From a virus (lineage: Duplodnaviria > Heunggongvirae > Uroviricota > Caudoviricetes), in IMG/VR virus record IMGVR_UViG_3300014043_000003, positions 5,850-69,849 of that record: DNA of 64,000 bases; one strand, given 5' to 3'. The position numbers were made by a program, and so were the translations under genes. Below the pieces are notes generated by a model, which was not told the origin of the DNA, searched no databases, and was given only the letters and a program-made list of their open reading frames with translations. Shown in pieces: positions 2,648 through 59,326 of this stretch; position 1 is the first letter of the stretch; every line of letters begins with the position of its first letter.

Positions 2648-2673
2648 ACTACCTCCTTGATTTATATATTCTT

Positions 2674-3135: not shown

Positions 3136-3139
3136 GTTC

Positions 3140-3605: not shown

Positions 3606-3616
3606 GATTCATTTAT

Positions 3617-5089: not shown

Positions 5090-5128
5090 CTCCTTGCCGT
5101 AGCCTTGTTTTGTGGTTAAAAGCCGGGT

Positions 5129-5295
5129 CTCTCAGTTCCCGCACCTGCGCGGGTTGCGTCGCATACGTGGGTGCCTTTGCTCGGATGCTCAAAGGCTCTC
5201 AGTTCCCACACCTGCGCGGGTTGCATCGGAACTAAAAGAACTGGAGGAGGATCTGTAAAATGCTCTCAGTTCCCACACCTGCGCGGGTTGCATCA
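5129..5295 (-). CRISPR. CRISPR array 3: three 33-bp repeats (consensus on the + strand CTCTCAGTTCCCACACCTGCGCGGGTTGCATCG) and two 34-bp spacers
   Basis: Repeats at 5129-5161, 5196-5228 and 5263-5295 (the last ends ..GCATCAGCAAAA, the same terminus as array 2). The array sits about 40-50 bp upstream of the effector start codon, on the same strand if the minus orientation is correct. Confidence 0.75.
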
Positions 5296-5466
5296 GCAAA
5301 ACCGCACAAATCAGTGAGGAGCTTTTTGTGCAATCCGTGCATGGTGGAGATTGACCGAGCAATAGCTACTTTGTCTGCTGGCCTACGGCCATATTGACTA
5401 CCGCTTTCTCGATCTTTTCGGCTTACGCCGCGGCGTGGCTGAGTCTCACGCCGTTTTTATTCTTGA
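5296..5466. ncRNA. Conserved structured module flanking array 3 (candidate leader and/or tracrRNA-like RNA), ending in a hairpin plus T-run
   Basis: It starts AGCAAAACCGCACAAATC and shares the 'ctaccgctttctcgatcttttcgg' block with the other two copies. It ends with CGGCGTG-gctgagtct-CACGCCG followed by TTTTTATT at about 5436-5466. Confidence 0.3.
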
Positions 5467-5491
5467 CAAAACTATTTTTGCACACTATAAT
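5463..5491 (+). promoter_or_regulatory. Consensus sigma70 promoter TTGACA-N17-TATAAT driving the divergent HTH gene
   Basis: TTGACA at 5463-5468, a 17-nt spacer, then TATAAT at 5486-5491. An AGGAGGTG ribosome-binding site lies at about 5512-5519 and a TTG start at 5525. Confidence 0.7.
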
Positions 5492-5524
5492 TTGTGTATA
5501 TAGACCACCATAGGAGGTGATATT

Positions 5525-5773
5525 TTGGCGATTATATGGAAAGTTGACCCTGTCGAGCTTCTGAAATCAGCGGGCTACAGCTCGTACCGCATCCGGCAGG
5601 AGAAGATTTTTGGTCAACAAACGTACCGCAACCTTCGTGAGCGGCGGCCAGTCGGTTTTGATGCTCTGAATACAATCTGCAAACTCACAAAAAAGAAACC
5701 CGGTCAACTCCTTGATTACGTCCCTGACAGTAAGCTCCCTCCAAAGGAGCAGGAGACTATCCCTGCTCCTTGA
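5525..5773 (+). CDS. Small HTH (Cro/CI-type) DNA-binding protein, paralogue of 6600..6833
   Basis: 82 aa from a TTG start with a strong ribosome-binding site. The ...YRNLRERRPVGFDALNTICKLTKKKPGQLLDYV segment resembles the ENIDTICSILNCQPGTLIRF HTH of its paralogue. It is transcribed divergently from the CRISPR locus. Confidence 0.55.
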   Translation: MAIIWKVDPVELLKSAGYSSYRIRQEKIFGQQTYRNLRERRPVGFDALNTICKLTKKKPGQLLDYVPDSKLPPKEQETIPAP

Positions 5774-32703: not shown

Positions 32704-34752
32704 TCAGAAACAGATCCGCATGATACGCTCGGTTGCCCCCTTGACCTTCAGGACAATGTCGCCGCGCTTCGTGGTGCTGAATCCGAGGCCGGAGAGCTGA
32801 TCATCCACATAGGCGACCTTCATTTTGCCGCCCAGGGCCTCAAATACGCGCTTGTGTTCGACAAGCTCCTGCTTGAGGAACTCATTGTAGAAGCCGTTTG
32901 GCTCCTCCGGATTCTTGCAGTCCTTCAAGATGAAGAAGAGGTGCTTGTGGCCGATGCCGGTCTGCTCGTCCCAATAATTTGGAGAGAACATCACGACGCT
33001 GACGGGGACAAAGTCCATCGTCTTGATGCCCCAGATTTCAGTGCTGGAGGTATCGACGGGAAGAGAATGCTCAATGGTGAAGTTGCCCTTGGAATCAAGG
33101 GTAACGACAGCCACTTCCACCTTCTCGTTCTGGCGGAGTTCCTTTCTGTAGTCATACTTGAAGATCTGACCGTCGAATTCAATTTCGGCGCGGAAACCGT
33201 CACGGCCGCCGCGATTGGTGTACTGGTGTACGAAGAATCTGTACTTGCCGGGCCTCATGCGCCGCAAGTCAGGCCAAGTGATGTTTTCGACCGCGGCAAC
33301 CGTATTGTACGGGTGCGTGATATCCACATCCAGATTGCCGCCGTCTCTGCACAGTTTGTTATAGTAGGCGATCTCCTCGCCGCTGGGCTCAAAGCAATGT
33401 GCATCAAGGTCGTTCCGGCTGTATTCCCCGGTGTCGTTCCACTGGATGCTGAATCTGAGGACACCATCGACACGGCCGCCGGCTGACTTGACGTTCTGCT
33501 TCACATCGCTGTCGGTGATATTCCCGGCGTAGGCCCACGAGAACGGGTTGTTCCACTTGAACATGGAGGGCGCATCGCTGTTCTGAGGGGCGATCACGGA
33601 AACGAAGTTGGGCGCGTGGCGGTTCTCCACATAGGCCTCGATCTCCTTTGCCGTCGGAAGGACCTCCTTGATGAAGGTCTCCGCGGAGATCTCCTCCACT
33701 CGATCGAACTTCTTCGGGGATTTCTTTGCATCGGCCTTCATCTCATCGAAGACCGTGGCGCCGACGATCCGCTTGGCCGCATCCCTGTTTGAGAACAGGA
33801 TGTTGTTCACGCGGATATCGTCAAGCTGAGCGTAACGGCGGGGCAGAGACTCCATGTATCCGAGGTCCCGGATGGTCTTCTTGGCCTCCTCCAGCATCTT
33901 TTCGGTGAAGATGGCCTTGGGCCTTTTGTAATTTGCTGGGGCTACAATGGCCTCGTAGCGCCTCACAGCCTCATTGAGATCCACGTTCTCGGAAATGTCC
34001 ACCAACAGAGTGCCGATGGAGTGATTGCGCATGCGGCTCAGGACAGGACCGGCCTTCTTCGACGCTTTCAGGGCATACAGGTTCTTCTTTTCCTCAGAGA
34101 TATTGTCGTACTCCGTCTTATATTTCTTGAGCTCCAGAAGGCTGTTCTTCCACTCCTGGCCCTTGTACAGGGTGTTGCTGCCGATGAGTTCAAGGACGGT
34201 GTCTATGGACTCCATCGTGATCTCCCGCAGGGTACGGGCGAAGACCTCGGCCGCCGATCTGCGGTGGGCTTTCTCGGTATCAATGGTGTCCCTGCCGCGG
34301 TACTGCCACGGATCAGGGATGGGGAGGTAAAAGTGCTCCCAGGTCGTGAGGTTGCCGGTGTTGCTGTCGTACTCGTGGCTCTTCTCTGTGCCGGCGAAGG
34401 TCTCCTTGGTGATGTACTCGTCGGTGATGCTCCGGCTGAGCACATATGTGTTCACGGCGTCAAGGACAAGCTGGAAATCCGGATCTTCCACGGTGAAGCC
34501 CCAGATCGTATGGCGGTCCAGATTCTCGTCAATGAACACGATGCCGCCGATCGTCTTGATGAAGTGACGGCAGCAGGAGCAGTCGAACTCCCGGCGGGTC
34601 CTGTAGATCGGATTGACTCTTGCGGGGAAGCTCTCCAGATAGGTGCTCCAGAGAACGTCCTTGTCCACATCGGTCTGGTAGGCCGTGCCGTAGCGCGCCA
34701 CCAGATCATCGAAGTTCTTTCGCAGCGCAAGCTGCAGATCGTGAAATCTCAT
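32704..34752 (-). CDS. Large hypothetical phage protein (682 aa)
   Basis: Long clean ORF with no recognisable motif. Confidence 0.5.
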   Translation of the reverse strand: MRFHDLQLALRKNFDDLVARYGTAYQTDVDKDVLWSTYLESFPARVNPIYRTRREFDCSCCRHFIKTIGGIVFIDENLDRHTIWGFTVEDPDFQLVLDAVNTYVLSRSITDEYITKETFAGTEKSHEYDSNTGNLTTWEHFYLPIPDPWQYRGRDTIDTEKAHRRSAAEVFARTLREITMESIDTVLELIGSNTLYKGQEWKNSLLELKKYKTEYDNISEEKKNLYALKASKKAGPVLSRMRNHSIGTLLVDISENVDLNEAVRRYEAIVAPANYKRPKAIFTEKMLEEAKKTIRDLGYMESLPRRYAQLDDIRVNNILFSNRDAAKRIVGATVFDEMKADAKKSPKKFDRVEEISAETFIKEVLPTAKEIEAYVENRHAPNFVSVIAPQNSDAPSMFKWNNPFSWAYAGNITDSDVKQNVKSAGGRVDGVLRFSIQWNDTGEYSRNDLDAHCFEPSGEEIAYYNKLCRDGGNLDVDITHPYNTVAAVENITWPDLRRMRPGKYRFFVHQYTNRGGRDGFRAEIEFDGQIFKYDYRKELRQNEKVEVAVVTLDSKGNFTIEHSLPVDTSSTEIWGIKTMDFVPVSVVMFSPNYWDEQTGIGHKHLFFILKDCKNPEEPNGFYNEFLKQELVEHKRVFEALGGKMKVAYVDDQLSGLGFSTTKRGDIVLKVKGATERIMRICF

Positions 34753-35444
34753 CTCTCCATTTCCTTTCTCAAGCTGTCTTTTATATAGTAATCAAGGCCG
34801 ATTCTCTGGCAGAGGGCCTCAGCCTCAATCCCAAACTGTTTCCAGTCGATATCCGACTGATGGTAGTTCAGCTTCCCGATCTTGACGCGGTCAACAAAAT
34901 AGTACTTCGCCAAGACGATATAGCTTATAACGCGGACGTTGTTCAGCACAGGCTCGAACGAAATCCATGTATTTATGCCCTTTGTTTTCGCCAATCTGAG
35001 CGTTTCGAGTCTCGAAACTGCTACGTTGCCGTCTTCGCTGCCGTCAAGCGTGACACCATACCAGTCGTTTTCGTCCAGCAGGTCTAAGGCATCGCTGCCG
35101 TCCCCTTTGGTGAGGATCTGAACATGATTCCCGTGCTCTTTCAGCAGCTTGATAATCTCAAGCGTCGTGGTGTGATCATAGCCCGTGGGGAATGGATCAC
35201 AGGTGAAACACAGGAAAATCGTCTTCCCGGTGATCGACTCCTTTTGGAGCTGTTTTCTGACCTCCTCAACGATGTTGGGGCGCGGTGTGACGGAGGCATG
35301 GAACTGTGCCCTATCCTTGTGCAGGACGTTCGGAACGTAGCAATAGGGGCAGGCATGGGGGCATCCGTCATAGATATTCAGTGCGAAGCCATCTTCGGCG
35401 TACTCGCCGGCGGCTCCTCGCGGCCTATATATTGGTGGTCTCAT
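34749..35444 (-). CDS. Radical SAM protein
   Basis: CPHACPYC CxxxCxxC cluster. Confidence 0.55.
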   Translation of the reverse strand: MRPPIYRPRGAAGEYAEDGFALNIYDGCPHACPYCYVPNVLHKDRAQFHASVTPRPNIVEEVRKQLQKESITGKTIFLCFTCDPFPTGYDHTTTLEIIKLLKEHGNHVQILTKGDGSDALDLLDENDWYGVTLDGSEDGNVAVSRLETLRLAKTKGINTWISFEPVLNNVRVISYIVLAKYYFVDRVKIGKLNYHQSDIDWKQFGIEAEALCQRIGLDYYIKDSLRKEMER

Positions 35445-35964: not shown

Positions 35965-36565
35965 CTTCCGCTTCTTTTTCCGCCTTTAGGCATTTCTCGT
36001 ATTCTTTATTTATTATGTCGGTGATAGACTTGATGCTCGTTTTTGAATTGTAGTGAAACTCAAAGGTAAACAGGATATCGTCGGAGAACACCTTCCGGGC
36101 CTTTACCTTGCAGATATTCCTGTCGTATTCAAGCCCGCCAAATCTTACTGTGTATGAGTGATCGGCGGCAGCGAAGGCCTTCCAGACCTTCTGGTACACC
36201 TGATACTGGACCCCTTCAAGCAGTTCATAATAACCAAGAAGATGTTTTGGGAGTCGCATAAAGGACTCATTTCCGTAGTTGCACAGCCTGTCGCTCCCGA
36301 TCTCCCTGATTACGACCATTCCGCTTTTATCCGGCGGCTCATGCACAAAGCCTACAATGAAATCGTTCGGACGGAAGGACGTGGAGGCAACAACCAGATC
36401 CCCGCGCTCAAGCGGTCTCCTTACGTTTTTGCTAAATCCCAAGAGTGGAGGCTGATCATTTTGCCACTTGTTTACCTCCCCGCGGTCATACAGCGCTTTC
36501 CTGAACACCTCCTGCAGAAGCATCATAAGAATACGTTCTTTGTCTGTCATCGTAGTTCCTCTCAT
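35939..36565 (-). CDS. Hypothetical protein
   Basis: 208-aa ORF. Confidence 0.4.
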   Translation of the reverse strand: MRGTTMTDKERILMMLLQEVFRKALYDRGEVNKWQNDQPPLLGFSKNVRRPLERGDLVVASTSFRPNDFIVGFVHEPPDKSGMVVIREIGSDRLCNYGNESFMRLPKHLLGYYELLEGVQYQVYQKVWKAFAAADHSYTVRFGGLEYDRNICKVKARKVFSDDILFTFEFHYNSKTSIKSITDIINKEYEKCLKAEKEAEGAADGKAD

Positions 36566-37152
36566 TTGCTATCGCATTGCGCGGCTCTTTTTTCTCTCTC
36601 GTTCATGTCGTTGATCATTCGCATGACCTTGAGGGCATCCGCCTGGATCACATGGTTTTCGATGGTCTCAAGCTCGGCCTTCGTCGGCTTGAAGTATTCA
36701 TTGCACAGGGCCTTTACATTCCGGATGGTGATTTGTACGTTGTCCGGCAAAAGCTCCATAGCGTAAACAGATTCCAGAGCCGTTGTGAAGTCAGCACGCT
36801 TTTTGCACCTCTCGAACTTTCTGCGCAGGATCTCCACGACGAAAACCCCTTCGCCGCATGTTGGCTCCAGAAAGGTGCTTTCCGGCTCGAATGCATTCTG
36901 TGGGAGGCTGTCACACATCAGGTCAACGACCCATTGCGGTGTGAAGACTTCTCCAAATTTTGACACTCTCTCAGCTTTTGTGAGGCGTTGTACTGAATCT
37001 GTCCCCAAGTCTTCCCGTGCTTTTTCCTGAATGCTTCTCGCCCCCCTTTGGATGCTTTCACCACCTTCGGATAACAGCTCTCGCACAGGCGGATAGGTTC
37101 TCCGCCCCATGCTGTAACCCCTTCCATATACGGTTTTCCGCATATGTGGCAA
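36562..37152 (-). CDS. Protein with an N6-adenine-methyltransferase-like N-terminal motif pair (FGEVFTP...EPTCGEGVF). The N-terminus is uncertain and overlaps the upstream ORF
   Basis: The 'FTP' and 'EPxCGxG' motifs resemble motif X/I of gamma-class methyltransferases, but no NPPY motif follows. There is a 234-bp overlap with 36918..37385. Confidence 0.35.
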   Translation of the reverse strand: MPHMRKTVYGRGYSMGRRTYPPVRELLSEGGESIQRGARSIQEKAREDLGTDSVQRLTKAERVSKFGEVFTPQWVVDLMCDSLPQNAFEPESTFLEPTCGEGVFVVEILRRKFERCKKRADFTTALESVYAMELLPDNVQITIRNVKALCNEYFKPTKAELETIENHVIQADALKVMRMINDMNEREKRAAQCDSK

Positions 37153-38114: not shown

Positions 38115-38547
38115 CTTGTTCCTCCAGATATTTTTCCCATGTCCGGCGCATCGGTGGATCTTTGGTCCAGCCCCATGTGCGCTCGTATTTTTCTGTCAGC
38201 TCCTTGGCATGAAGCGCAGCTTCGCGGGCGGTGTAGAAAACCTTCGTCCCAATATCAGACAGCTTGTGATAGCGCGGAGTAGGAGAACTGTAGTCTCCAT
38301 TTGGTATTGGGCCGCACATTACCAGTTCTACGTATCCACCCTCAAAATAGCTCTCAATAGGGGCAGATGTAACTACATACTCCAAACGCACCAAGACGCT
38401 GCCTTTTTCGTAATACCTGTTTTCATGTACATCCCACATCACGGTCCCGATCGGCGGCCTTTTCTGTCTTGCTCCCATACGCCCCCCTATCAGATAGCCA
38501 CGGCCTGCATCAGGGCGGCCATGTCTACGTAAGTAACCTGGCACCAC
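38089..38547 (-). CDS. Hypothetical protein
   Basis: 152-aa ORF; the start is uncertain. Confidence 0.35.
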   Translation of the reverse strand: MVPGYLRRHGRPDAGRGYLIGGRMGARQKRPPIGTVMWDVHENRYYEKGSVLVRLEYVVTSAPIESYFEGGYVELVMCGPIPNGDYSSPTPRYHKLSDIGTKVFYTAREAALHAKELTEKYERTWGWTKDPPMRRTWEKYLEEQDGRTEENH

Positions 38548-41177
38548 TCCGGCATGTTGGCCTTAACCACAGCCGTCGCCATCGGCGGGCACACCGCGTT
38601 CCCGCAGCGCGCGACCTGTGCCGTCTTCGGGTAATCCTTCCCCGTGTAATCCTTATCAATGACATAATCGTCTGGGAATCCCATTGCCGAGTACAGCTCC
38701 CGCGGTGTCAGCATTCTCATAGAAATATCGCTCAGGTAATACCATGTCCCACCGAGATTCAACAGTAGGATCTCATCATCAGCCAGCTTATAATCGCAAT
38801 ACTTGTTCAGGAGCGCGCGGATCTCCGGCCAGTGGCCCAAAGACTGTGTTCCCGGCGCGTATTTCTCGATGCGCACCGAGGCAACCGCAAACTCCCCGCC
38901 GCCGGCCGTGACCGTCTGCATAGGCTCCGCAGGGATTTGCCCAAGATTGTCGCCCTTGAATTTGACGACGTGAACAGCAGTCAGGGCCTCCCGGTCATGC
39001 CCGGTAACTGTGTGCATCGGCTCCCGAAGATCCAGAGGGACCCCGTTGCCGTAATACTCGGTCAGATGAGCAGCCGTCAGGCTGTATCTGTTGGAGGAAT
39101 CCACGGTCGGAAGAGGATCGCGCAGGCCGTTTGCTCTGACTGTTTCGGTCTGCTCCGTGTGGTACTGGATCAGGTTTGTTGCGACAAGGCCCTTCGTGCA
39201 TTTCTGGGTTATTGTCCCAAGCGGTGTATCTGTCCCAGCGACATGTCCGCCTCCAGAGTGGTTACACTCCGCAATGAACGGCTTACCGCTCTTGATGGTG
39301 AACTTATCCACGCCGCGGATGATTCTCCGCATAGTGTTGTTCGCAAGAGGCCGGACGGCGTTGACGCCGTATTTCTCCTTGAGTTGTTCTTTTGTATCGA
39401 ATACGGAGTACATCGGAACGCTCCAGTTGATGATCTCCGCGGCGGAGCGCCACGGCTTATACTTGCCGCTCTTGACCTCCTCGCTGTCTACAGGCGCGTG
39501 TGTCCGTTCAGGCCACACAACGGGCTTTCCGTCGCACCTTGCGACAAGGACGAAGCGCTTGCGCGTGGTAGGGGCGCCATAGTCGGCTGCCACCAGCTCA
39601 CGGTGTTCGACCTGATACCCCAGGTCTTGGAGTTGCTTGAGCCACTTTTTGAAGGTCTCCCCAGCCTTTTTCTTGATCGGTTTTCCCTTGCGGACGGGTC
39701 CCCAGGTCTGGAACTCCTCCACGTTTTCGAGGATGATGACGCGAGGCCGAACAGTACCGGCCCAGCGAAGCACGATCCATGCGAGGCCCCGGATATTCCG
39801 GTCCACGAGGGCGCTGCCCTTGGCCTTGGAGAAGTGCTTGCAGTTGTGGACGATGACTCCCTCAGCAATGTAGCTTTCGTCCTTATCGACGCTGATGTTA
39901 TAAAACTCTTTCTGATTGCCGGTGACGGTCGTCTCTTTGATCGGCGCCCAGAGGACGCCGTCTTCTGTGAAGGTCTGCCTATGTTTCTCCTCAACAGCGC
40001 GGCGCCACTTGACCCTGAATTGGTCTCTGGTGTTGACGACTCGGCCCTCTATTGGCCGTCCAGGAGCATCGGCGGCATACACCATAGGGGAAAACCCGAC
40101 CGTACCAGCAAGCGTTTTGAGGCCATACGCGAGCTTCTTGGAGACTGTAGTTGCCTCCACCAGTCCATCCTTCTCATAACCGTCCGCGCTGAGGTAGCCC
40201 GCGAGGAACGCTCCACGCAATCTCATACTGGAGCCGAACAGCCACGCCGGGATTTTCTTCTCTCCCGCCAAATGGCCGAAGTTCTCGCGGAGCCACTGGA
40301 CAAGGCTTCGATTGCTGCATGTAAACTGCCCGCCTGTCCTGACCTTCCTGAAATGCCATGCAAGCTCTCCATCCTTGCATCGCAGCCCCGTTCGCGGCCA
40401 CATATCCAGATTCTTCTGCAGATATTCGATGTCCTGCGGTCCGCAGCAGATGACAAGCTCACCACGCTTTTCGCTCAGGCGACTCCATCCATCACCGACG
40501 TATCTGCCGGCGAGCCACAAGAGGCGCTCGTCAATCGGAAGGACAGAGCACTTGCCGCTCGACTTTGTCATCAGGGGAATCGGGAGCTGTTCAATCTCGA
40601 TCGGCATTCCCCAATAATCCTTTGGCGTCAGCTCTTTGGCCTTCTTCCAGACCGGGGCACTGTATTGGTGATCGTAGTTTCTGCGGTCATTGTTCCACAC
40701 CTCCGAGCGCTCTCTGACATAGAACGGATGCCCGGTGCTGCACACGATTCCCGGATGCCCATAGCCTTTGACGATCATCTCATCTCTGAGCGTCTTCATT
40801 GTGGCCGTGACCTTTCTCCACCTGTTCTTGTGGGTGAGGACGCAGTCTCCCTCGCGGATCTCCTCAATGGGCTTGTAGCCATCTGTGGTGAGGATCAGCG
40901 TCCCCGCTTCAAAACAGTCAGGGGAAAACCACGCGAGGCCAACAGGCCGCCCAGCGCACACCTCCGTCGGGTCAACATCCCAAACCGAGGCTTGGAGGTG
41001 CAGCGTATAGGGGTGATTCGTCTTGTGCATGAGTATGGCCGCGGGATTGTGATTGATCGCTATGGTAACAGGGCGGCCGGTTGCCAGCTCTATCCCGGTA
41101 GAGGCACCGCCACCGCCGGCGAAGTTGTCCACGATAATCTCATCAAGGAGATTGATCTGTGCGTTTTCTCGGCTCAT
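38490..41177 (-). CDS. dcm: DNA (cytosine-5)-methyltransferase interrupted by an intein with a LAGLIDADG homing-endonuclease domain
   Basis: Motif I ..VDNFAGGGGAS, motif VI ..VIILENVEEF, motif X ..GNAVCPP. The catalytic PC motif is split: FSPD|C FEAGTLILTTDGYKPIEEIREGDCVLT (intein block A) ... IVCSTGHPFYV (block B) ... LWLAGRYVGDGWS and FLAGYLSADGY (two LAGLIDADG motifs) ... EGVIVHN|CKHFSKAKG (intein C-terminal HN plus the +1 Cys). Confidence 0.8.
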   Translation of the reverse strand: MSRENAQINLLDEIIVDNFAGGGGASTGIELATGRPVTIAINHNPAAILMHKTNHPYTLHLQASVWDVDPTEVCAGRPVGLAWFSPDCFEAGTLILTTDGYKPIEEIREGDCVLTHKNRWRKVTATMKTLRDEMIVKGYGHPGIVCSTGHPFYVRERSEVWNNDRRNYDHQYSAPVWKKAKELTPKDYWGMPIEIEQLPIPLMTKSSGKCSVLPIDERLLWLAGRYVGDGWSRLSEKRGELVICCGPQDIEYLQKNLDMWPRTGLRCKDGELAWHFRKVRTGGQFTCSNRSLVQWLRENFGHLAGEKKIPAWLFGSSMRLRGAFLAGYLSADGYEKDGLVEATTVSKKLAYGLKTLAGTVGFSPMVYAADAPGRPIEGRVVNTRDQFRVKWRRAVEEKHRQTFTEDGVLWAPIKETTVTGNQKEFYNISVDKDESYIAEGVIVHNCKHFSKAKGSALVDRNIRGLAWIVLRWAGTVRPRVIILENVEEFQTWGPVRKGKPIKKKAGETFKKWLKQLQDLGYQVEHRELVAADYGAPTTRKRFVLVARCDGKPVVWPERTHAPVDSEEVKSGKYKPWRSAAEIINWSVPMYSVFDTKEQLKEKYGVNAVRPLANNTMRRIIRGVDKFTIKSGKPFIAECNHSGGGHVAGTDTPLGTITQKCTKGLVATNLIQYHTEQTETVRANGLRDPLPTVDSSNRYSLTAAHLTEYYGNGVPLDLREPMHTVTGHDREALTAVHVVKFKGDNLGQIPAEPMQTVTAGGGEFAVASVRIEKYAPGTQSLGHWPEIRALLNKYCDYKLADDEILLLNLGGTWYYLSDISMRMLTPRELYSAMGFPDDYVIDKDYTGKDYPKTAQVARCGNAVCPPMATAVVKANMPEWCQVTYVDMAALMQAVAI
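39843..40916 (-). other. Intein (about 358 aa, Hint plus LAGLIDADG endonuclease) inserted at the catalytic Cys of the C5-methyltransferase
   Basis: Boundaries inferred from Cys1 (aa 88) through His-Asn (aa 444-445) with Cys +1. Coordinates are approximate. Confidence 0.65.
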
Positions 41178-41371
41178 TCGCTGTCCTTCTTTTCTTCGTC
41201 GGAATTATTGGCCTGCTTGTTGTTTCTCACCGTCACTCCGTTGAGCAACACCAAAACCAGAAACCAAAGCAGGGACCATTTGTGGAACTGGACGGCCGCG
41301 TAAGTAACGCAAACCGTTATCGCTATGTTCTCAAGGGTTACGCAAAGCCACGCTACCGCTATAGCCATCAT
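41174..41371 (-). CDS. Small membrane protein
   Basis: 65 aa, hydrophobic. Confidence 0.35.
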   Translation of the reverse strand: MMAIAVAWLCVTLENIAITVCVTYAAVQFHKWSLLWFLVLVLLNGVTVRNNKQANNSDEEKKDSE

Positions 41372-42083: not shown

Positions 42084-42653
42084 TCAATCCTCGAAGTCCA
42101 TGTACATCCGGCTTGCCTGGACGCCGTTGTTTCCCTGATACTTTCCGCTGTAGGGCTTCAGGCACTCGCCCTTGATCGGCTGGTAGTACACCTGGCCGAT
42201 GCTCACATCCGCATAAATACGGATCGGCTGGATCGGCGTGATCTCCAAGGTCCAGCGGCCATCAAACCCCGGATCGCCAAACCCGGCGGTAACATGGACA
42301 AACACGCCGAGGCGTCCTACAGAGGAACGCCCGTCAAAGATCGGCTCCAGATTGGTGCCTGTAATGGTCCTCTCTTTGGTCATGCCGAGGTACAGCCGGC
42401 CGGGATAAATGACAAGCCCCTCTTCCGGGATCTTGATCTTCTTCGTGGGATTATTCTTTTTCATGTCAAGGACGCCGTGAACAGACGCCATGTAGCCATG
42501 TCGGGGATCAACATAGTCTGTTTCATAGATGAGGAGCGTATCGTCCAAACGGACGTTGTAGCTCGCTCCGTTGAGCTGGTCACGGGAAAAGTTTTCGATT
42601 ACGATGTTCCCGGCTTCCACCTCTTTCAGAATTTCGCTGTCGGCGAGAATCAT
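42084..42653 (-). CDS. dcd: dCTP deaminase (dUTPase-fold)
   Basis: ..IFDGRSSVGRLGVFVHVTAGFGDPGFDGRWTLEI.. conserved dCTP-deaminase segments. Confidence 0.7.
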   Translation of the reverse strand: MILADSEILKEVEAGNIVIENFSRDQLNGASYNVRLDDTLLIYETDYVDPRHGYMASVHGVLDMKKNNPTKKIKIPEEGLVIYPGRLYLGMTKERTITGTNLEPIFDGRSSVGRLGVFVHVTAGFGDPGFDGRWTLEITPIQPIRIYADVSIGQVYYQPIKGECLKPYSGKYQGNNGVQASRMYMDFED

Positions 42654-42801
42654 TGTGCGTGTCCTCTCTTTTTCCTTTTGCCATTCATAAATGCCTCTTG
42701 CCATTTACGAAGGAAAAATAAATAGCTGTGTCCAGCACCTATATATTATCATATATAGGCACTCGCGTCAACTGTTTTGGTAACTTTTTACCTTGTTTTG
42801 C

Positions 42802-54736: not shown

Positions 54737-55042
54737 TTACTCAGCATAGAGAATCTCGCTCATTTCCAGGATGCATTCCGTGAGGACTTCGTTTTCCTCA
54801 CGGAGTTCGCGAAGCGTACGCTCAAGGTCGCTCTCCTCAACAAAAGTGAACCAGTAGCGTCCGTCGATGCTGGCGCAGCGCTGTACGCTTGCATTCACGT
54901 ATACGATACTGCCGTTGTCGGTCTCCACCGTCACCTGACTGAGATCGGCGGGGAAGGTCGGCTCCACAGGGACAATCAGACTGTCGCCGTTCTGCTCCGC
55001 CGTGAGGGTTGTGCCGTTTTTGAAGATGATTCTGGCTTCCAT
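54737..55042 (-). CDS. Hypothetical protein downstream of the reverse transcriptase
   Basis: Start taken at MEARIIFKNG. It overlaps the reverse-transcriptase 3' end by about 66 bp. Confidence 0.35.
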   Translation of the reverse strand: MEARIIFKNGTTLTAEQNGDSLIVPVEPTFPADLSQVTVETDNGSIVYVNASVQRCASIDGRYWFTFVEESDLERTLRELREENEVLTECILEMSEILYAE

Positions 55043-56202
55043 TTCAATTCCTTTCCGAAGAGCTCCATATACAGACTCTTCATGTGCTTGATTTGGTCTT
55101 TTGACATGATCCTTGAAAAATCGCCCATCCATGATCGAGCCGCCTGCTCAATCTCCGGATAGGCGATCTTTCCGTTGTCCATGAGACGCTTATACGCTTT
55201 CAGTTTCCTTCTTTCGCGGGTTACTGATTGTGGATTGATCCTCCGGACAACCTGCCCTGTTTCGGTAAGACTGTACTTGATCTGTAGAAACTTGTAAGTG
55301 CCGGAGAGCTTGACGATCCTTGTCTTGCTTTCATTGATAAACAGGCCAAGAGAATCCGCTTCGGCTTTCACCCCATTGATGATGGACTTCAATTCCTCAA
55401 GGTCTTTGCAGATGATATACATGTCATCCATATACCTGCCGTAATACTTGCATCTGCGGACAATCTTCACGTAATTATCAATGGGTGTCGGAAAGAAAAC
55501 GCCGATGTCCTGCGACACCTGATCCCCTATGTCTACAGACTTCGGCATGAATTTTTCTCCCGTCCGATTCGCCTTTGGGACGTTCTTGTAGTATTCAACA
55601 GAGTTGAATTTCCGATTCATGCAGGAGGCAAATTCATTGTCGCTCATATACGATACATCGACCTCGAACGTACGGAGTATCTTGTCCATAAACCATTGGG
55701 CTTCGCTGCTGATCTTCGGATACACCTGCTCTTTGATCTTGTCATGCTGGATGTTGTCATAGAACTTTGAAAAGTCAACGAAACCAACATATCCATCATT
55801 CGTGCGGTGTTTTAACCAGAAGTTATGCAAATCCTTCTCGAACATCATTCTTGTGAAGCTGATGCCCTTTCCCTTCTGACTGGCACCGTTGTTATGAATC
55901 AGATACGGATGCAGCGCCGATGTAAGCTCGCCGTCACATAACGCATGGCGAACGACCCTGTCACGGACCTTTACGCCATGGATGTGCCTGATCTTCCCTC
56001 TCTCATTCAGAGTAAACTCGACGCCCGGAAGGGTTTCGTAGGTGCGAGATTCCATCTCATGTTTCAGCTTGACAATCTCCGACAGAAAATCCCTTTCAAA
56101 AAGCTGAGGCTCTTCTTTCCATGCGCTCCCCTTCATGGATGCAAGAAATGAATCGTAGAGCAAATTCAGATCACACAGTCTATTCTCGCTCATATTTCGC
56201 AT
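54976..56202 (-). CDS. Diversity-generating retroelement reverse transcriptase
   Basis: RT motifs ..YGRYMDDMYII.. (YxDD) and ..VDIGDQVSQDIGVFF.. (the DGR-specific I/VGxxxSQ). Strong GGAGGT ribosome-binding site. It lies directly 3' (in the minus direction) of the template repeat. Confidence 0.85.
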   Translation of the reverse strand: MRNMSENRLCDLNLLYDSFLASMKGSAWKEEPQLFERDFLSEIVKLKHEMESRTYETLPGVEFTLNERGKIRHIHGVKVRDRVVRHALCDGELTSALHPYLIHNNGASQKGKGISFTRMMFEKDLHNFWLKHRTNDGYVGFVDFSKFYDNIQHDKIKEQVYPKISSEAQWFMDKILRTFEVDVSYMSDNEFASCMNRKFNSVEYYKNVPKANRTGEKFMPKSVDIGDQVSQDIGVFFPTPIDNYVKIVRRCKYYGRYMDDMYIICKDLEELKSIINGVKAEADSLGLFINESKTRIVKLSGTYKFLQIKYSLTETGQVVRRINPQSVTRERRKLKAYKRLMDNGKIAYPEIEQAARSWMGDFSRIMSKDQIKHMKSLYMELFGKELKWKPESSSKTAQPSRRSRTATV

Positions 56203-56382
56203 ACCTCCCTCCGCGGGTTAAGCCCCGGATATTAGTTCGTCGTAACTCACTACATGAAGCAAACCGGGTATGCGCGGCTCCGCATTGCTGCGCTGTCTTT
56301 TAGCCTCCTTATCGGAGGACATGGATAATCTTTCCTTTCGGTAAAACGCCGGCCTATCTTATAGAGGACTTACTATGCGTTT

Positions 56383-56505
56383 CCAAAATCCGGACGGACG
56401 CCGATCCTTGAGTTCGAAGCGTTGTTGTAGTTGCAGTTGCCGTTGTTGTTCACATTGGCGAAGTTCGACGCGGAGACGACATCACGCAGCCACCAGTTGG
56501 CGCGT
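56383..56505 (-). repeat. DGR template repeat (TR)
   Basis: About 123 bp homologous to the 3' ends of both target genes, with a constant offset (894 bp to VR1, 1955 bp to VR2) and no indels. Nearly every TR/VR mismatch lies at a + strand T (an A on the sense strand) of the TR. The spurious ORF 56373..56651 is its translation. Confidence 0.85.
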
Positions 56506-56529
56506 TCAAAGATTACCCAAATATTAGAA

Positions 56530-57204
56530 TCATTGCTTTGTGACTTCCGCTTCCTTGCTGACCAGCAAACTTTTCTCAACCTTGGCGATTTTGCGGATAA
56601 TGTCTGCAATATTCTCGAAGATTGTGATAATGTGCTGATCCATGGAGTCAAGGATTTTTCCGGTCTTTCTGTCCTTTCGCGGCTTTATGAGCTTATTATC
56701 CGCAGAACGGACGCCCTTGTAGAGGGCGATCTGCTTATCTATCAGCTCCGCAAACCTCTCGTACTTGTTGATGTCGACCGGAAGCGTCCTGATGACGTAG
56801 TTGATCTCCTGCTTCAGAGAATAGCAAAGGCCAATCGCCTTGTTCATGTGCCATCTGCGCACAAGGAACTCCATGAGTCTCGCCGGTGTCTCAGATGGAA
56901 AAATAGAATTGCCGGACGTAAATTCTTCTTCGATCCTTCTGAGCAAATCCAGTAGGGCGCGGGCTTCCTCGTCGATAAACCATTTGTCAAATGCGTCCAG
57001 CTTTTGCTGTTTCAACGCTATAGTCTCAAGCGACTTCGGATTGTTCACGTTTGCCGCCTTGAGCTGGTCAATCTTCATCTGATATTTCTCTTTGCAGAAG
57101 CCGAAATCATTCAGAATGAGGCCGGTCACTTCATTCCGCAAGTAATAGAAATGATGGGACGCCTCGAAGCGTGATTCCTTCCTTCGGCCTTTCGGTACAC
57201 TCAT
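56530..57204 (-). CDS. DGR accessory protein candidate (in the Avd position; 224 aa, not obviously an Avd fold)
   Basis: It occupies the canonical position between the target genes and the TR. No recognisable Avd-like four-helix-bundle sequence, so the call rests on synteny only. Confidence 0.4.
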   Translation of the reverse strand: MSVPKGRRKESRFEASHHFYYLRNEVTGLILNDFGFCKEKYQMKIDQLKAANVNNPKSLETIALKQQKLDAFDKWFIDEEARALLDLLRRIEEEFTSGNSIFPSETPARLMEFLVRRWHMNKAIGLCYSLKQEINYVIRTLPVDINKYERFAELIDKQIALYKGVRSADNKLIKPRKDRKTGKILDSMDQHIITIFENIADIIRKIAKVEKSLLVSKEAEVTKQ

Positions 57205-57263
57205 GTGTGATTCTCCTTATCTCCTTGAATCCCGCCCACAAGGGGCGGAGATTCAAGATACGC

Positions 57264-58238
57264 TTACGCTTTGATACCGAAAGCCGGACGGACGCCGATC
57301 CATGAACCCGAAGCGCTGTTGTAGTCGCAGGCGCCGTGGTTGTTCACATAGGCGAAGTCCGACGCGGAGACGACATCACGCAGCCACCAGACGGCGCGGT
57401 TGCAGATGTACTGCGGCGCCAGCTTGAACAGAGGCAGTTGTCCCTTGTCTATCGTGTAGGCATTGGGAATGTTCGTGCCATGCACAACGTTGGAGAACAC
57501 ACGGCATCCATAGACCATCTGTTCATTCATCAGGTCAACTGCGCTGTCATACCAGGCGCCTGCGTTCTGATACCCGCCGGTCGTGGAGTTCGCAAAATAC
57601 TCGCGGTGAGTAAGGATGTGAGAACTTCCAAAGGCTTCTTCGATCATACCGACGGCCGTTGCCTTGCCGACATTGTCGTTGTTGCCGGTGTAGAAGTCGG
57701 ACCCGATGTACGCGCCTGTCGTGATATTCGTCTTGTTCATCGGCGCGTTGGAGCCGAGGTTCGTATCCGGGACGATAACCGCGTGGTGGGTAGTGCATTC
57801 GGTGTCGCCGCATCTGAGCCAGTAGTCAAAGGCGGCAATACGCCAGTTCTTGCCGCCGATCACCCAGTAGTCGCCGATAAAAAGATCCTCAAACGTACCG
57901 GCGCTGATCGCCGCATACTGATCGGCGGTAACGGATGTGCCAAGGTTCTTTCCACGGAACAGGCTGTTGTGAAATCCGGCGTTATTATAGTTTCCGGCGA
58001 CATTGCGAATCCTTGCTATGTCTGCAACATGCTCATTGATCGCACCGGTCAGGTTCTGGGCCGTGGTCAGGAGCGCAGCAGTACCAACGCGGGCCGCAAT
58101 TGCCTTGTTCTCGACAGGGTTCGTCGAGGTCGTGGAGAGTGCGCTGTCGATTGTGTCGATCACGCCGGTTGCCAGGTCGGTGTATGTGCCGTCCTGATTC
58201 CGTTTCTTGACCGCGCTGGGATAAAGGGTTACAGGCAT
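57264..58238 (-). CDS. DGR target protein 1: tail-fibre/receptor-binding protein with a C-terminal C-type-lectin-like variable region
   Basis: The C-terminus ..NRAVWWLRDVVSASDFAYVNNHGACDYNSASGSWIGVRPAFGIKA is encoded by VR1. It is a paralogue of 58325..59326. Confidence 0.8.
   Translation of the reverse strand: MPVTLYPSAVKKRNQDGTYTDLATGVIDTIDSALSTTSTNPVENKAIAARVGTAALLTTAQNLTGAINEHVADIARIRNVAGNYNNAGFHNSLFRGKNLGTSVTADQYAAISAGTFEDLFIGDYWVIGGKNWRIAAFDYWLRCGDTECTTHHAVIVPDTNLGSNAPMNKTNITTGAYIGSDFYTGNNDNVGKATAVGMIEEAFGSSHILTHREYFANSTTGGYQNAGAWYDSAVDLMNEQMVYGCRVFSNVVHGTNIPNAYTIDKGQLPLFKLAPQYICNRAVWWLRDVVSASDFAYVNNHGACDYNSASGSWIGVRPAFGIKA
57277..57399 (-). repeat. DGR variable repeat 1 (VR1)
   Basis: Aligned to the TR with substitutions only where the TR sense strand has A. 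An identical 18-bp GC-rich segment (CCGGACGGACGCCGATCC on the + strand) lies at the sense 3' end (IMH candidate). A conserved hairpin CCCGCCC-ACAA-GGGGCGG lies at 57231-57248, just 3' of the gene. Confidence 0.8.
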
Positions 58239-58324
58239 AAATTATCCCTCCTATTCTAATTCTATTTATGCCCCATGAAGTAGTCTGAATCCCCGCCCAC
58301 AAGGGGCGGTGATTTAAGATTCGC

Positions 58325-59326
58325 TTACGCTTTGATTCCGAAAGCCGGACGGACGCCGATCCCGGAGTACGAAGCGTAGTTGAAGTAGCAGCGGCCGTAG
58401 TTGTCCACAAGGGCGAAGCGCGACGCGGAGACGACATCACGCAGCCACCAGACGGCGCGGTTGCAGATGAACGAAGGCGCGAGCGCAAACAGCGGGAGCT
58501 GCCCTTTGTCGATGGTATAGGCATTCGGAATGTTCGTTCCGTGCATTGCATTGGAATAGACGCGACAGCCGTACACCATCTGCTCGTTCATCATATCCAC
58601 CGTGGAGTCGTACCACGCTCCAGCGCTTTGATAGCCGTTGGTCACAGCATTGGCGAAGTATTCTCTATGGCTGAGAATATGCGCAGCGCCGAAGGCACCC
58701 TCGGCCATTGCGATGCAGTCAGCCTTGGCAGTGTTCTCAGTTTCATTGGCATTGACGCCGGTGTAGAAGCCGCTGCCGACATACGCGCCGGTCGTGATGT
58801 TCGAGGTGTTCATGTAATGAGTGGTACTGCCATCGGCAACTTTCAGGTTGGAGTCTGGAACGATCACGGCATGATGCTTTGTGCATTCGGTATCTCCGCA
58901 TCTATACCAGTAATCAAAGGCCGCAATGCGCCAGTTAATGGAGTTGATCGTCCAATAGTCTCCAATGAACAGGTCTTCAAAGGTTCCGGCGTTGATTGCC
59001 GCCCACTGTTCCGCCGTAATGGTGGAGCCGAGGCTTTTCCCCCTGAAAATGCTATTATGGAAGCCTGCGGTGTCACTGTTGCCGAAGATCGCCATGAGCT
59101 CCTCAATGTCCGCTTCCTGCTCATTGATCGCTTCAGCAAGGGTTTGAGCTGTGGTATCCAGGGCCGCCGTGCCGAGCCTGTTTGTGATAACAAGGTTCTG
59201 AACGGGACTCGAACTGATTGTAGAGAACACATCGTCAACTTCGGTTACGACGGCAGGGGTAACGTCGGTGTACGTTCCGTTGTCGTTGCGTTTCTTTACA
59301 ACGCCGGGATAAAGAGTCAAAGGCAT
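58325..59326 (-). CDS. DGR target protein 2: paralogous tail-fibre/receptor-binding protein with a C-terminal variable region
   Basis: The C-terminus ..NRAVWWLRDVVSASRFALVDNYGRCYFNYASYSGIGVRPAFGIKA is encoded by VR2. Confidence 0.8.
   Translation of the reverse strand: MPLTLYPGVVKKRNDNGTYTDVTPAVVTEVDDVFSTISSSPVQNLVITNRLGTAALDTTAQTLAEAINEQEADIEELMAIFGNSDTAGFHNSIFRGKSLGSTITAEQWAAINAGTFEDLFIGDYWTINSINWRIAAFDYWYRCGDTECTKHHAVIVPDSNLKVADGSTTHYMNTSNITTGAYVGSGFYTGVNANETENTAKADCIAMAEGAFGAAHILSHREYFANAVTNGYQSAGAWYDSTVDMMNEQMVYGCRVYSNAMHGTNIPNAYTIDKGQLPLFALAPSFICNRAVWWLRDVVSASRFALVDNYGRCYFNYASYSGIGVRPAFGIKA
58338..58460 (-). repeat. DGR variable repeat 2 (VR2)
   Basis: Same relationship to the TR as VR1, with a conserved downstream hairpin CCCCGCCC-ACAA-GGGGCGG at 58291-58309. 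Confidence 0.8.

What the first reader, a model, noticed from the sequence alone, without database searches (positions are those of the whole stretch)
38490..41177. Intein with LAGLIDADG homing endonuclease inserted at the catalytic Cys of a phage C5-cytosine methyltransferase
The 895-aa ORF has all the C5-methyltransferase motifs (FxGxG, ENV, GN.VCPP), but the PC motif is split by about 358 aa. That insert starts CFEAGTLILTTDG.. (intein block A), contains TGHPFYV (block B) and two LAGLIDADG motifs (LWLAGRYVGDGWS and FLAGYLSADGY), and ends ..VIVHN followed by Cys. The mature methyltransferase would read ..FSPD-CKHFSKAKG.. Insertion at the catalytic nucleophile is the classic intein niche. Inteins in phage DNA-modification enzymes are uncommon.
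Basis: partly seen in the sequence, partly recalled or inferred. Interest (0 to 1): 0.6.

Follow-up and report, generated by a model that had tools for sequence, protein, structure and literature searches.

The report
Intein inside a phage cytosine methyltransferase
A phage DNA cytosine-methyltransferase gene is interrupted, exactly in front of its catalytic cysteine, by a self-splicing protein element (intein) that carries its own homing endonuclease; it is a genuine textbook-type intein and belongs to a large family that is almost unmentioned in the papers I could search.

Summary
ORF 38490..41177 (-) encodes 895 aa. Residues 88-445 (358 aa; window 39843..40916) are an in-frame insertion between D87 and C446 of a C5-cytosine methyltransferase. 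Intein-less homologues (up to 88% identical) run straight through "WFSPD|CKHFSKAKG". The insert hits intein-splicing, Hint and LAGLIDADG profiles. Its AlphaFold model (pLDDT 95) matches solved endonuclease-bearing inteins (TliVMA, PI-SceI, PI-PkoII). Cys1, the block B His, the terminal His-Asn, the +1 Cys, both LAGLIDADG aspartates and a lysine are present and conserved across the family. The +1 Cys aligns with the motif IV cysteine of a solved C5 methyltransferase. A second contig carries the same intein; dN/dS is 0.11 and synonymous divergence is lower than in the flanking exteins, which fits recent homing. This is not a rarity. About 820 protein clusters hold relatives, mostly at the same methyltransferase position, including Pseudomonas phage Lana and P1-like phage-plasmids in 152 of 5426 complete E. 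coli genomes. A 2025 preprint lists C-5 methylases as intein hosts. Verdict: real, canonical, a new member of a known kind, of modest interest. Splicing and cleavage are inferred, not shown.

The parts
38490..41177 (-). Whole precursor ORF (895 aa plus stop): C5-cytosine DNA methyltransferase interrupted by an intein. The ATG overlaps the stop of the upstream 65-aa ORF (ATGA), and a GAAGGA ribosome-binding-like site lies about 10 nt upstream.
   Evidence: Pfam PF00145 4.6e-23
40917..41177 (-). N-extein, residues 1-87. It holds motif I (DNFAGGGGAS, 41100..41129) and ends in WFSPD, the N-terminal half of motif IV (40917..40931).
   Evidence: 93.9% nt identity to L004 and 92.7% to the intein-less L003
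39843..40916 (-). Intein, 358 aa (residues 88-445): a Hint splicing domain split by a double-motif LAGLIDADG homing endonuclease.
   Evidence: Pfam Intein_splicing, Hint_2 and LAGLIDADG_3 above cut-off; absent from intein-less homologues; AF2 pLDDT 95.4; Foldseek best match TliVMA intein 7qsu, E 1.7e-18, TM 0.69
40830..40916 (-). Intein block A: CFEAGTLILTTDGYKPIEEIREGDCVLTH. Cys88 (intein Cys1) is the first splicing nucleophile.
   Evidence: C1 is invariant in 39 family members; V26 and T28 invariant, H29 at least 90%
40719..40760 (-). Intein block B: GHPGIVCSTGHPFY. His150 (intein H63) is invariant. The usual Thr of TxxH is Ser here (S60).
40482..40523 (-). First LAGLIDADG motif: LLWLAGRYVGDGWS. 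Asp229 (intein D142) is the putative catalytic acid.
   Evidence: G137 and G143 invariant, D142 at least 90% conserved; helix 130-142 in the model
40248..40262 (-). EKKIP motif of the endonuclease. Lys307 (intein K220) is invariant across the family.
   Evidence: aligned with KRIP of PI-PkoII
40176..40217 (-). Second LAGLIDADG motif: RGAFLAGYLSADGY. Asp332 (intein D245) is the putative catalytic acid.
   Evidence: G240 invariant, D245 and G246 at least 90%; helix 231-245 in the model; aligned to PI-PkoII and PI-SceI
39843..39905 (-). Intein blocks F and G: FYNISVDKDESYIAEGVIVHN, ending in His444-Asn445.
   Evidence: NCBIfam intein_Cterm 31.5 bits against cut-off 15.6; V343, D346 and N358 invariant, H357 at least 90%
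39840..39842 (-). Cys446: the +1 extein nucleophile for splicing and also the motif IV catalytic cysteine of the methyltransferase.
   Evidence: Invariant in the alignment with homologues; aligns with the Cys of PPCQGFS in solved methyltransferase 3g7u; the Pfam DNA_methylase match restarts exactly at residue 446
38490..39842 (-). C-extein, residues 446-895 plus stop. It holds CKHFSKAKG (motif IV, C half), ENV (39720..39728), APTTRKR (39555..39575), RMLTPRELY (within 38691..38735) and GNAVCPP (38583..38603). Between motifs VIII and IX lies a roughly 300-aa variable region with four P[LM]xT[VI]-type repeats.

Best explanation
The gene encodes an 895-aa precursor of an apparently orphan phage C5-cytosine DNA methyltransferase; no restriction endonuclease was recognised among the neighbours I scanned. 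Its catalytic loop (motif IV, SPD-C) is interrupted by a canonical class-1 intein. The following steps are inferred from established intein chemistry plus the residues present. Cys88 undergoes an N-S acyl shift. Cys446 (+1) attacks the resulting thioester. Asn445, assisted by His444, cyclises and releases the 358-aa intein. An S-N shift then joins Asp87 to Cys446. The product is a 537-aa enzyme with an intact WFSPDCKHFSKAKG motif. The cysteine that served as splicing nucleophile then serves as the nucleophile that attacks cytosine C6. The precursor cannot be active, because the catalytic loop is split. The excised intein is a monomeric double-motif LAGLIDADG endonuclease. It should cut intein-less alleles of the gene in the DNA that encodes motif IV, during co-infection or a phage-prophage encounter. 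Repair from the intein-bearing allele then copies the intein in (homing). This intein belongs to a large lineage that occupies this one position in many C5-methyltransferase subfamilies and has moved between them.
For: Shown directly: (1) The ORF is uninterrupted and the 358-aa gap is exact against nine intein-less homologues; among the best 120 homologues only P0002 has the insert. (2) Intein, Hint and LAGLIDADG profiles pass curated cut-offs. (3) The AF2 model has pLDDT 95.4 and pTM 0.92; the top Foldseek matches are all endonuclease-bearing inteins (TliVMA, PI-SceI, PhoVMA, PI-PkoII, PI-PfuI), followed by I-DmoI. (4) Splicing residues C1, H63 and N358 are invariant and H357 and the +1 Cys are at least 90% conserved in a 39-member alignment; endonuclease residue K220 is invariant and D142 and D245 are at least 90% conserved. 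(5) Removing the insert restores one continuous Pfam DNA_methylase match (residues 16-210, E 1.2e-26), and C446 aligns with the PC-box Cys of solved methyltransferase 3g7u. (6) An independent contig from another sample (L004) has the same intein. dN/dS is 0.11 (19 synonymous against 8 non-synonymous changes). Intein dS is 0.085, against 0.22 and 0.39 in the adjoining extein stretches and 0.14 in the last 150 codons (Fisher p = 1.3e-5 against all three pooled). (7) Syntenic phage contig L003 has the empty site. (8) About 40% intein identity persists in canonical GFPCQ methyltransferases whose exteins are only about 27-35% identical to this one, always at the same site. (9) The phage context is clear: tail fibre, endolysin, diversity-generating retroelement, dCTP deaminase.
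Against: No experiment shows splicing, DNA cleavage or methylation. Two positions depart from the commonest class-1 consensus (consensus from my own knowledge of intein blocks). Block B reads S-x-x-H instead of T-x-x-H. The block F position that is Asp in many inteins is Asn (FYN); both variants are shared by this intein's relatives and the second resembles VMA-type inteins. The evidence for recent homing rests on one pair of alleles. The four empty sites I examined differ from the window's flanks at 7-10 of 60 nt, so their susceptibility to the endonuclease is unknown. The model of the spliced methyltransferase was poor (pLDDT 51.9), so there is no structural confirmation of the repaired active site.
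Confidence: 0.9

Rival explanations
1. The element is a genuine intein by descent, but its endonuclease is no longer active. It persists only because precise splicing is needed to keep the methyltransferase working (a 'stuck' intein late in the homing cycle).
For: Endonuclease decay is the common fate of fixed inteins (established knowledge). Relatives show decay: P0131 and P0170 are shortened (259 and 239 aa), and P0122 is disrupted by a TnpB-like sequence. The non-synonymous changes between the window and L004 fall mainly in the second half of the intein.
Against: Both catalytic Asp residues and the conserved Lys are intact. Whole-intein dN/dS is 0.11. The endonuclease domain is modelled with pLDDT of about 95. 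Intein dS is lower than extein dS, which suggests recent transfer. The distribution among close homologues is sporadic, 1 in 120.
Confidence: 0.2
2. The insert is a non-splicing Hint-type domain (bacterial intein-like domain or a domesticated insertion), and the 895-aa protein functions as such.
For: Weak sub-threshold hits to PT-HINT and Vint, and to a bacterial intein-like domain, 2lwy.
Against: Cys1, block B His, terminal His-Asn and the +1 Cys are all present and conserved. The intein_Cterm profile passes its cut-off. The insertion splits the catalytic loop of the enzyme at an otherwise invariant motif, so an unspliced protein could not methylate. The closest structures are true inteins. 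Bacterial intein-like domains typically lack an endonuclease and sit in variable regions (established knowledge).
Confidence: 0.03
3. The architecture is an assembly or annotation artefact, for example a chimeric contig or a group I intron with a free-standing endonuclease read through by accident.
For: None found. The 823-aa antisense ORF 38832..41303 (+) could mislead an annotator.
Against: The same architecture occurs in an independent sample (L004), in cultured phages (Lana, RCS47) and in hundreds of protein clusters. The reading frame is continuous, with the Hint halves flanking the endonuclease. The antisense ORF has no Pfam match. GC content and GC3 of the insert match the exteins.
Confidence: 0.01

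Closest known systems
Endonuclease-bearing class-1 inteins of the VMA / PI-SceI type (PI-SceI 1vde/1lws, TliVMA 7qsu/7qss, PhoVMA 7qst, PI-PkoII 2cw7, PI-PfuI 1dq3)
   Same: It has the same bipartite architecture: a Hint splicing domain with a double-motif LAGLIDADG endonuclease inserted in it. It has Cys1, a C-terminal His-Asn and a +1 Cys, and the block F/G sequence is of the same style. The structural matches are the best found (E 1e-18 to 1e-12, TM up to 0.71).
   Different: Sequence identity is only 13-18%. The host protein and host organism differ (phage methyltransferase against ATPase or polymerase). At 358 aa it is more compact than PI-SceI (454 aa).
Inteins at the same site of other phage C5 methyltransferases: Pseudomonas phage Lana gp71, P1-like phage RCS47 Dmt, Escherichia phage A4, Propionibacterium phage B22 gp50, Mannheimia phage 587AP2, EBPR siphovirus 2 gp44
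   Same: For Lana gp71 and RCS47 Dmt I read the junctions and the insertion point is the same, immediately before the motif IV Cys: Lana WFSPD|C...VVHN|CTHFSVAKGG and RCS47 GGTP|C...VVHN|CQAFSIAG. For the other four phages I have only tblastn matches to the intein under methyltransferase annotations; their junctions were not read. All are homologous inteins with 30-41% identity over 100% of the length.
   Different: They are divergent (41% identity at most). Apart from Lana gp71, which belongs to the same SPDC subfamily, the hosts are of different subfamilies or were not examined. None of these records annotates the intein; the genes are named only 'DNA methyltransferase' or similar. I found no paper describing them.
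Published phage methylase inteins (mycobacteriophage DNMT-1/2, Kelley et al. 2016, PMC5050341; actinophage methylase intein, PMC9957025; actinophage survey, bioRxiv 10.1101/2025.01.02.630785)
   Same: These are inteins with LAGLIDADG endonucleases in phage DNA methyltransferases, sporadically distributed, with evidence of horizontal transfer between divergent methylases. The 2025 survey lists C-5 methylase (IPR001525) as a host.
   Different: The characterised cases are in N6/N4 (PF01555) methylases. C-5 hosts are only listed, and in the passages I searched no insertion site or catalytic role is discussed. The present phage is from a different lineage; its nearest relatives are gut Clostridia phages and MAGs.
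C5-cytosine DNA methyltransferases (Pfam PF00145), the phage 'SPDC-HFS-AKG' subfamily (e.g. Dulem virus 34, Roseburia phage Jekyll, Pseudomonas phage Dolphis)
   Same: The spliced extein has motifs I, IV, VI, VIII, IX and X. It is 60% identical to the Dulem virus 34 enzyme and 51% to that of Roseburia phage Jekyll, and 55-88% identical to thousands of metagenomic homologues.
   Different: It carries the intein. The number of P[LM]xT[VI] repeat modules in the variable region differs between homologues. The target sequence is unknown.

Membership tests
Canonical (class 1) intein | In-frame insertion that is absent from orthologues, with exact boundaries | tested here: met
   There is a 358-aa gap between D87 and C446 in nine intein-less homologues. 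The empty allele occurs in syntenic contig L003.
Canonical (class 1) intein | N-terminal Cys/Ser nucleophile (block A) | tested here: met
   Cys88 (intein C1) is invariant in 39 relatives. Hint_2 matches residues 88-129.
Canonical (class 1) intein | Block B TxxH motif | tested here: met
   H63 is invariant. The Thr position is Ser60 here (S-T-G-H), a conservative variant also seen in relatives P0121 and P0125.
Canonical (class 1) intein | C-terminal His-Asn followed by a Cys/Ser/Thr +1 residue (block G) | tested here: met
   The sequence is VIVHN|C. N358 is invariant, and H357 and the +1 Cys are at least 90% conserved. TIGR01443 intein_Cterm scores 31.5 bits against cut-off 15.6.
Canonical (class 1) intein | Hint fold | tested here: met
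   AF2 model with pLDDT 95.4. Foldseek matches to solved inteins have probability 1.00 and TM up to 0.71.
Canonical (class 1) intein | Protein splicing actually occurs | not testable with these tools
   This needs expression and detection of the ligated exteins.
LAGLIDADG homing endonuclease (double-motif, monomeric) | Two LAGLIDADG helices, each ending in a conserved acidic residue | tested here: met
   The motifs are LLWLAGRYVGD229G and FLAGYLSAD332G. D142 and D245 (intein numbering) are at least 90% conserved. Pfam LAGLIDADG_3 scores 32.3 bits against cut-off 22.5.
LAGLIDADG homing endonuclease (double-motif, monomeric) | The alpha-beta-beta-alpha-beta-beta-alpha fold, twice | tested here: met
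   Secondary-structure elements 130-272 of the model. Foldseek matches to I-DmoI and I-Tsp061I and to the endonuclease domains of PI-SceI and PI-PkoII.
LAGLIDADG homing endonuclease (double-motif, monomeric) | Site-specific cleavage of the intein-less allele | not testable with these tools
   There is indirect support only: sporadic distribution, and intein dS lower than extein dS.
C5-cytosine DNA methyltransferase (PF00145) | Conserved motifs I (FxGxG), IV (PC), VI (ENV), VIII (RxR), IX and X (GN.V.PP), in order | tested here: met
   The motifs are FAGGGG, SPD-C, ENV, TTRKR, RMLTPRE and GNAVCPP. Pfam gives 1.2e-26 for the spliced protein. Aligned motifs are seen in DNMT1 and 3g7u. Motif IV is P-D-C rather than P-C.
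C5-cytosine DNA methyltransferase (PF00145) | Catalytic Cys in motif IV | tested here: met
   C446 (C88 after splicing) is invariant in 20 homologues. It aligns with the Cys of PPCQGFS in 3g7u.
C5-cytosine DNA methyltransferase (PF00145) | 5-methylcytosine formation and target specificity | not testable with these tools
   This needs methylome sequencing or an enzyme assay.
Bacterial intein-like (BIL) domain | Hint domain without an endonuclease, in variable non-conserved regions of the host protein, lacking the canonical +1 nucleophile or C-terminal motif | tested here: not met
   An endonuclease is present. The insertion lies in an invariant catalytic motif. The canonical HN|C is present.

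The most novel reading that the evidence does not exclude
The intein may be more than a passenger. Because it splits the catalytic loop and uses the enzyme's own catalytic cysteine as its +1 nucleophile, splicing could act as a post-translational (for example redox-sensitive Cys1/Cys+1) switch that times methyltransferase activity during infection. The released endonuclease could also act as a weapon that cuts the methyltransferase gene of co-infecting, intein-less relatives. Separately, the 'motif IV' intein lineage, spread over hundreds of C5-methyltransferase clusters and present in P1-like phage-plasmids of about 3% of complete E. coli genomes, appears to be an essentially undescribed major intein allele family.
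Probability: 0.15. Interest if true: 0.55.

Novelty: new member of a known kind. Interest (0 to 1): 0.3.

Why it matters
For this window it corrects the annotation. The 895-aa ORF is a 537-aa methyltransferase plus a 358-aa mobile element, and the enzyme is active only after splicing. More broadly, the same-site intein family is large and hardly annotated. RefSeq names the P1-like hosts 'Dam family methyltransferase'. A compact (358-aa), well-modelled intein that uses Cys at both junctions, together with a LAGLIDADG endonuclease that targets a conserved methyltransferase motif, could interest protein engineers and people who study phage competition. None of this overturns current understanding. 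Inteins characteristically sit in active sites of nucleic-acid enzymes of phages.

Tried and rejected
(1) Megablast of the gene against GenBank phages gave no match, so no near-identical annotated phage is available.

(2) The AlphaFold model of the spliced methyltransferase, built from a 20-sequence alignment, was poor (pLDDT 51.9). I did not run a fold search on it and draw no conclusion from it. The catalytic-Cys assignment rests on sequence alignment instead.

(3) Profile search of the extein alignment against PDB did not display motif IV. A shorter query did.

(4) Literature searches for a dedicated description of inteins at the C5-methyltransferase catalytic Cys found none. Apparent co-occurrences in PMC4487195, PMC6266608 and bioRxiv 10.1101/2024.08.14.607894 were unrelated. 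One search failed on a term that was too short.

(5) The long antisense ORF 38832..41303 (+) was considered as a possible antisense endonuclease and rejected, because it has no Pfam match.

(6) I looked for a compositional anomaly in the intein. There is none: GC is 56.1% against 58% in the exteins, and GC3 is similar.

(7) The idea that the closest empty allele (L003) is endonuclease-resistant rests on a cluster of 9 changes in 60 nt, including F84C, next to the junction. It is suggestive only, because other empty alleles differ by 7-10 of 60 nt as well.

(8) The first MAFFT alignment of the three genes misplaced the L003 N-extein. I redid it with spliced sequences.
Full report
OBSERVATION. 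The minus-strand ORF 38490..41177 exists and encodes 895 aa. Its ATG overlaps the stop codon of a 65-aa upstream ORF (ATGA), and a GAAGGA ribosome-binding-like site precedes it. The insert runs from Cys88 to Asn445, which is 358 aa at window 39843..40916. Cys446 follows at 39840..39842.

DOMAINS. Pfam finds DNA_methylase (PF00145, 4.6e-23) split into two stretches. The second stretch restarts exactly at residue 446. For the insert alone, Intein_splicing, Hint_2 and LAGLIDADG_3 all pass their curated cut-offs. NCBIfam intein_Cterm scores 31.5 bits against a cut-off of 15.6. When the 358 aa are removed in silico, the DNA_methylase match becomes one continuous stretch (residues 16-210, E 1.2e-26).

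INSERTION, NOT DOMAIN. A search with the spliced sequence returned thousands of homologues. The best 120 are 55-88% identical and 530-720 aa long, and only one of them (P0002, 932 aa) carries Hint domains. In an alignment with nine intein-less homologues and P0002, the intein-less proteins read WFSPD directly followed by CKHFSKAKG. The 358 residues form a single clean gap.

CATALYTIC CYSTEINE. The extein carries motifs I (FAGGGG), IV (SPD-C), VI (ENV), VIII (TTRKR), IX (RMLTPRE) and X (GNAVCPP). In a direct alignment with the solved cytosine methyltransferase 3g7u, 'awfspdckhfsk' pairs with 'iiggppcqgfss'. This puts C446 on the PC-box cysteine. That this cysteine is the nucleophile attacking C6 of cytosine is established knowledge for the family. 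In this subfamily an Asp sits between Pro and Cys, so the intein lies between Asp87 and the catalytic Cys, and that Cys is the intein's +1 residue.

THE INTEIN ITSELF. PDB sequence matches are to PI-PkoII and PI-SceI over the endonuclease, and to Hint domains over the ends. An AlphaFold model built on 39 relatives is confident (pLDDT 95.4, pTM 0.92). Its 16 best Foldseek matches in the PDB are all endonuclease-bearing inteins: TliVMA 7qsu (E 1.7e-18, TM 0.69), PI-SceI, PhoVMA, PI-PkoII and PI-PfuI. Free-standing LAGLIDADG enzymes such as I-DmoI follow.

CONSERVED RESIDUES. In the family alignment C1, H63 (block B), K220, V343, D346 and N358 are invariant. D142 and D245 (the two LAGLIDADG acids), H357 and the +1 Cys are at least 90% conserved. 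There are two mild departures from the commonest class-1 consensus (consensus from my own knowledge). Block B reads SxxH. The block F position that is Asp in many inteins is Asn (FYN), as in VMA-like inteins. Both features are shared by this intein's relatives.

EVIDENCE OF ACTIVITY AND MOBILITY. Contig L004 comes from another sample and carries the same intein at the same site. Syntenic contig L003 carries the empty allele. Between the window and L004 the intein is 97.5% identical at the DNA level, while the N- and C-exteins are 93.9% and 90.2% identical. Intein dN/dS is 0.11 (19 synonymous and 8 non-synonymous changes). Intein dS is 0.085, against 0.22 in the N-extein, 0.39 in the first 190 C-extein codons and 0.14 in the last 150. 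Pooled against those three stretches, the difference in synonymous changes gives Fisher p = 1.3e-5. Purifying selection on the whole element, and a younger common ancestor for the intein than for its host gene, are what homing predicts. This rests on one allele pair only. Four empty alleles differ from the window's flanks at 7-10 of 60 nt around the junction, mostly at third codon positions. L003 has the most changes adjacent to the junction, including F84C. Whether that confers resistance is speculation.

A LARGE FAMILY AT ONE SITE. A word-indexed search with the intein alone found 54 relatives, most of them with PF00145. An exhaustive phmmer scan of 1.84 billion cluster representatives found 7133 hits at E up to 1e-3, 2711 at E up to 1e-10 and 821 at E up to 1e-30. 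Among 126 full-length matches in the top 147, 95 fit a strict pattern: the upstream sequence ends in Pro or Pro plus D/E/P, and Cys follows the intein. About 14 more are variants of the same C5-methyltransferase motif IV (SPA|C, SPS|C, SLE|C, SHE|C). The remainder sit in other proteins, some of which carry several inteins. The hosts span several methyltransferase subfamilies: SPD|C[KT]HFS.AKG, canonical GFP|CQD[IL]S.AG, SPP|CQ.YS and SPE|CT.HS. Intein identity to the window stays near 40% in canonical GFPCQ enzymes, whose exteins are only about 27-35% identical locally. Intein and extein identities correlate only moderately (Spearman 0.45). The intein lineage has therefore moved between distant C5-methyltransferase genes while keeping the homologous insertion point.

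KNOWN GENOMES AND LITERATURE. tblastn against GenBank phages finds the intein family in genes annotated only as methyltransferases. These include Pseudomonas phage Lana gp71 (41% identity), P1-like phage RCS47 Dmt, Escherichia jumbo phage A4, Propionibacterium phage B22, Mannheimia phage 587AP2 and EBPR siphovirus 2. I read the junctions of Lana gp71 (same SPDC subfamily, WFSPD|C...VVHN|CTHFSVAKGG) and of RCS47 Dmt (GGTP|C...VVHN|CQAFSIAG). The RCS47 intein DNA occurs in 152 of 5426 complete E. coli genomes, 148 places on plasmids. RefSeq labels the host gene 'Dam family ... methyltransferase' or, once, 'LAGLIDADG family homing endonuclease'. In the literature, mycobacteriophage methylase inteins are in N6/N4 enzymes (PMC5050341; PMC9957025). 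A 2025 preprint lists C-5 methylase (IPR001525) among actinophage intein hosts and, in the passages I searched, does not discuss the site. I found no paper describing an intein at the catalytic Cys of C5 methyltransferases, but the library is incomplete.

CONTEXT. The window is phage DNA. It holds a tail fibre, an endolysin, a reverse transcriptase with template and variable repeats, a dCTP deaminase homologue, a radical-SAM/DUF5131 protein and a second small methyltransferase-like ORF. The nearest annotated relatives of the extein are Dulem virus 34 (60%) and Roseburia phage Jekyll (51%), and MAG proteins from Oscillospiraceae and Eubacteriales. This points to a phage of gut Clostridia.

MECHANISM. 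Shown: the architecture, the residues, the fold, the empty alleles and the selection signal. Inferred: the four-step class-1 splicing pathway, using Cys88, Cys446 and Asn445 to give a 537-aa active methyltransferase; inactivity of the precursor; cleavage of the motif IV coding DNA of intein-less alleles by the released LAGLIDADG enzyme; and homing by repair.

RIVALS. A decayed endonuclease is possible, at about 0.2. A non-splicing Hint domain (0.03) and an artefact (0.01) are effectively excluded.

VERDICT. It is a canonical intein in a canonical niche, a divergent new member of a lineage that is abundant and already listed in one survey, though scarcely described. Novelty: new member of a known kind. 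Interest: 0.3.

Noticed in passing
window 54976..59326 (-): RT ORF 54976..56202; template repeat about 56369..56520; variable repeats about 57263..57414 and 58324..58475: This is a diversity-generating retroelement. A reverse transcriptase (phrog_1423, 4.9e-54) has a 152-nt template repeat just upstream. Two roughly 80% identical copies lie at the 3' ends of two paralogous ORFs (57264..58238 and 58325..59326). Nearly all differences in the repeat core fall on template adenines (AAC codons).
   Followed up: partly
L002 (Escherichia phage RCS47, NC_042128.1) 2270..5557; intein DNA L002:2501..3523: The bifunctional Dmt methyltransferase of P1-like phage RCS47 carries a related intein (31% identity) before the catalytic Cys of its C5 half (GGTP|C...VVHN|CQAFSIAG). 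The intein DNA is present at 95-100% identity in 152 of 5426 complete E. coli genomes, mostly on P1-like plasmids. RefSeq names the gene 'Dam family ... methyltransferase'. I found no paper mentioning it.
   Followed up: partly
proteins P0175, P0185, P0191, P0197, P0207, P0239 and others: Some relatives carry two to four copies of this intein type in one polypeptide. P0175 is a methyltransferase with a second intein about 45 residues after the first. Others are in P-loop proteins (HN|S.GKS) and in a DNA-polymerase exonuclease motif (DIE|C).
   Followed up: no
window 38490..39555 (-), residues about 280-410 of the spliced protein; alignment A1 columns 640-850: The region between methyltransferase motifs VIII and IX contains four degenerate repeats built around P[LM]xT[VI][TD] (TPLGTIT, DPLPTVD, EPMHTVT, EPMQTVT). 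Homologues differ by whole extra modules of about 32 aa (P0001, P0016) or other insertions (P0002). This may be a modular target-recognition region.
   Followed up: no
window 34749..35444 (-), 36562..37152 (-), 42084..42704 (-): The neighbours of the methyltransferase are a radical-SAM/DUF5131 protein, a short N6-methyltransferase-like ORF (phrog_21201, 9.5e-18; Pfam N6_Mtase below cut-off) and a dCTP-deaminase homologue (phrog_1663, 3e-48). In the syntenic contigs a CxxCxxCC protein is also called. This may be a DNA-modification gene neighbourhood.
   Followed up: no
window 38832..41303 (+): An 823-aa open reading frame lies antisense to the whole methyltransferase-intein gene. It has no Pfam match and is most likely a shadow ORF produced by GC3-rich codon usage.
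   Followed up: yes
window 3617..5089 (-): A 490-aa ORF matches phage 'transposase' families (phrog_506, 1.1e-65). It appears to be an insertion-sequence-type gene inside the phage region.
   Followed up: no
window 62404..63301: Six tandem 162-nt (54-aa) repeats at 63-74% identity lie inside the 786-aa tail-fibre ORF 61505..63865 (-).
   Followed up: no
protein P0122: In one relative the C-terminal part of the homologous intein is replaced by a TnpB-like sequence. This is an intein allele destroyed by an insertion sequence.
   Followed up: no
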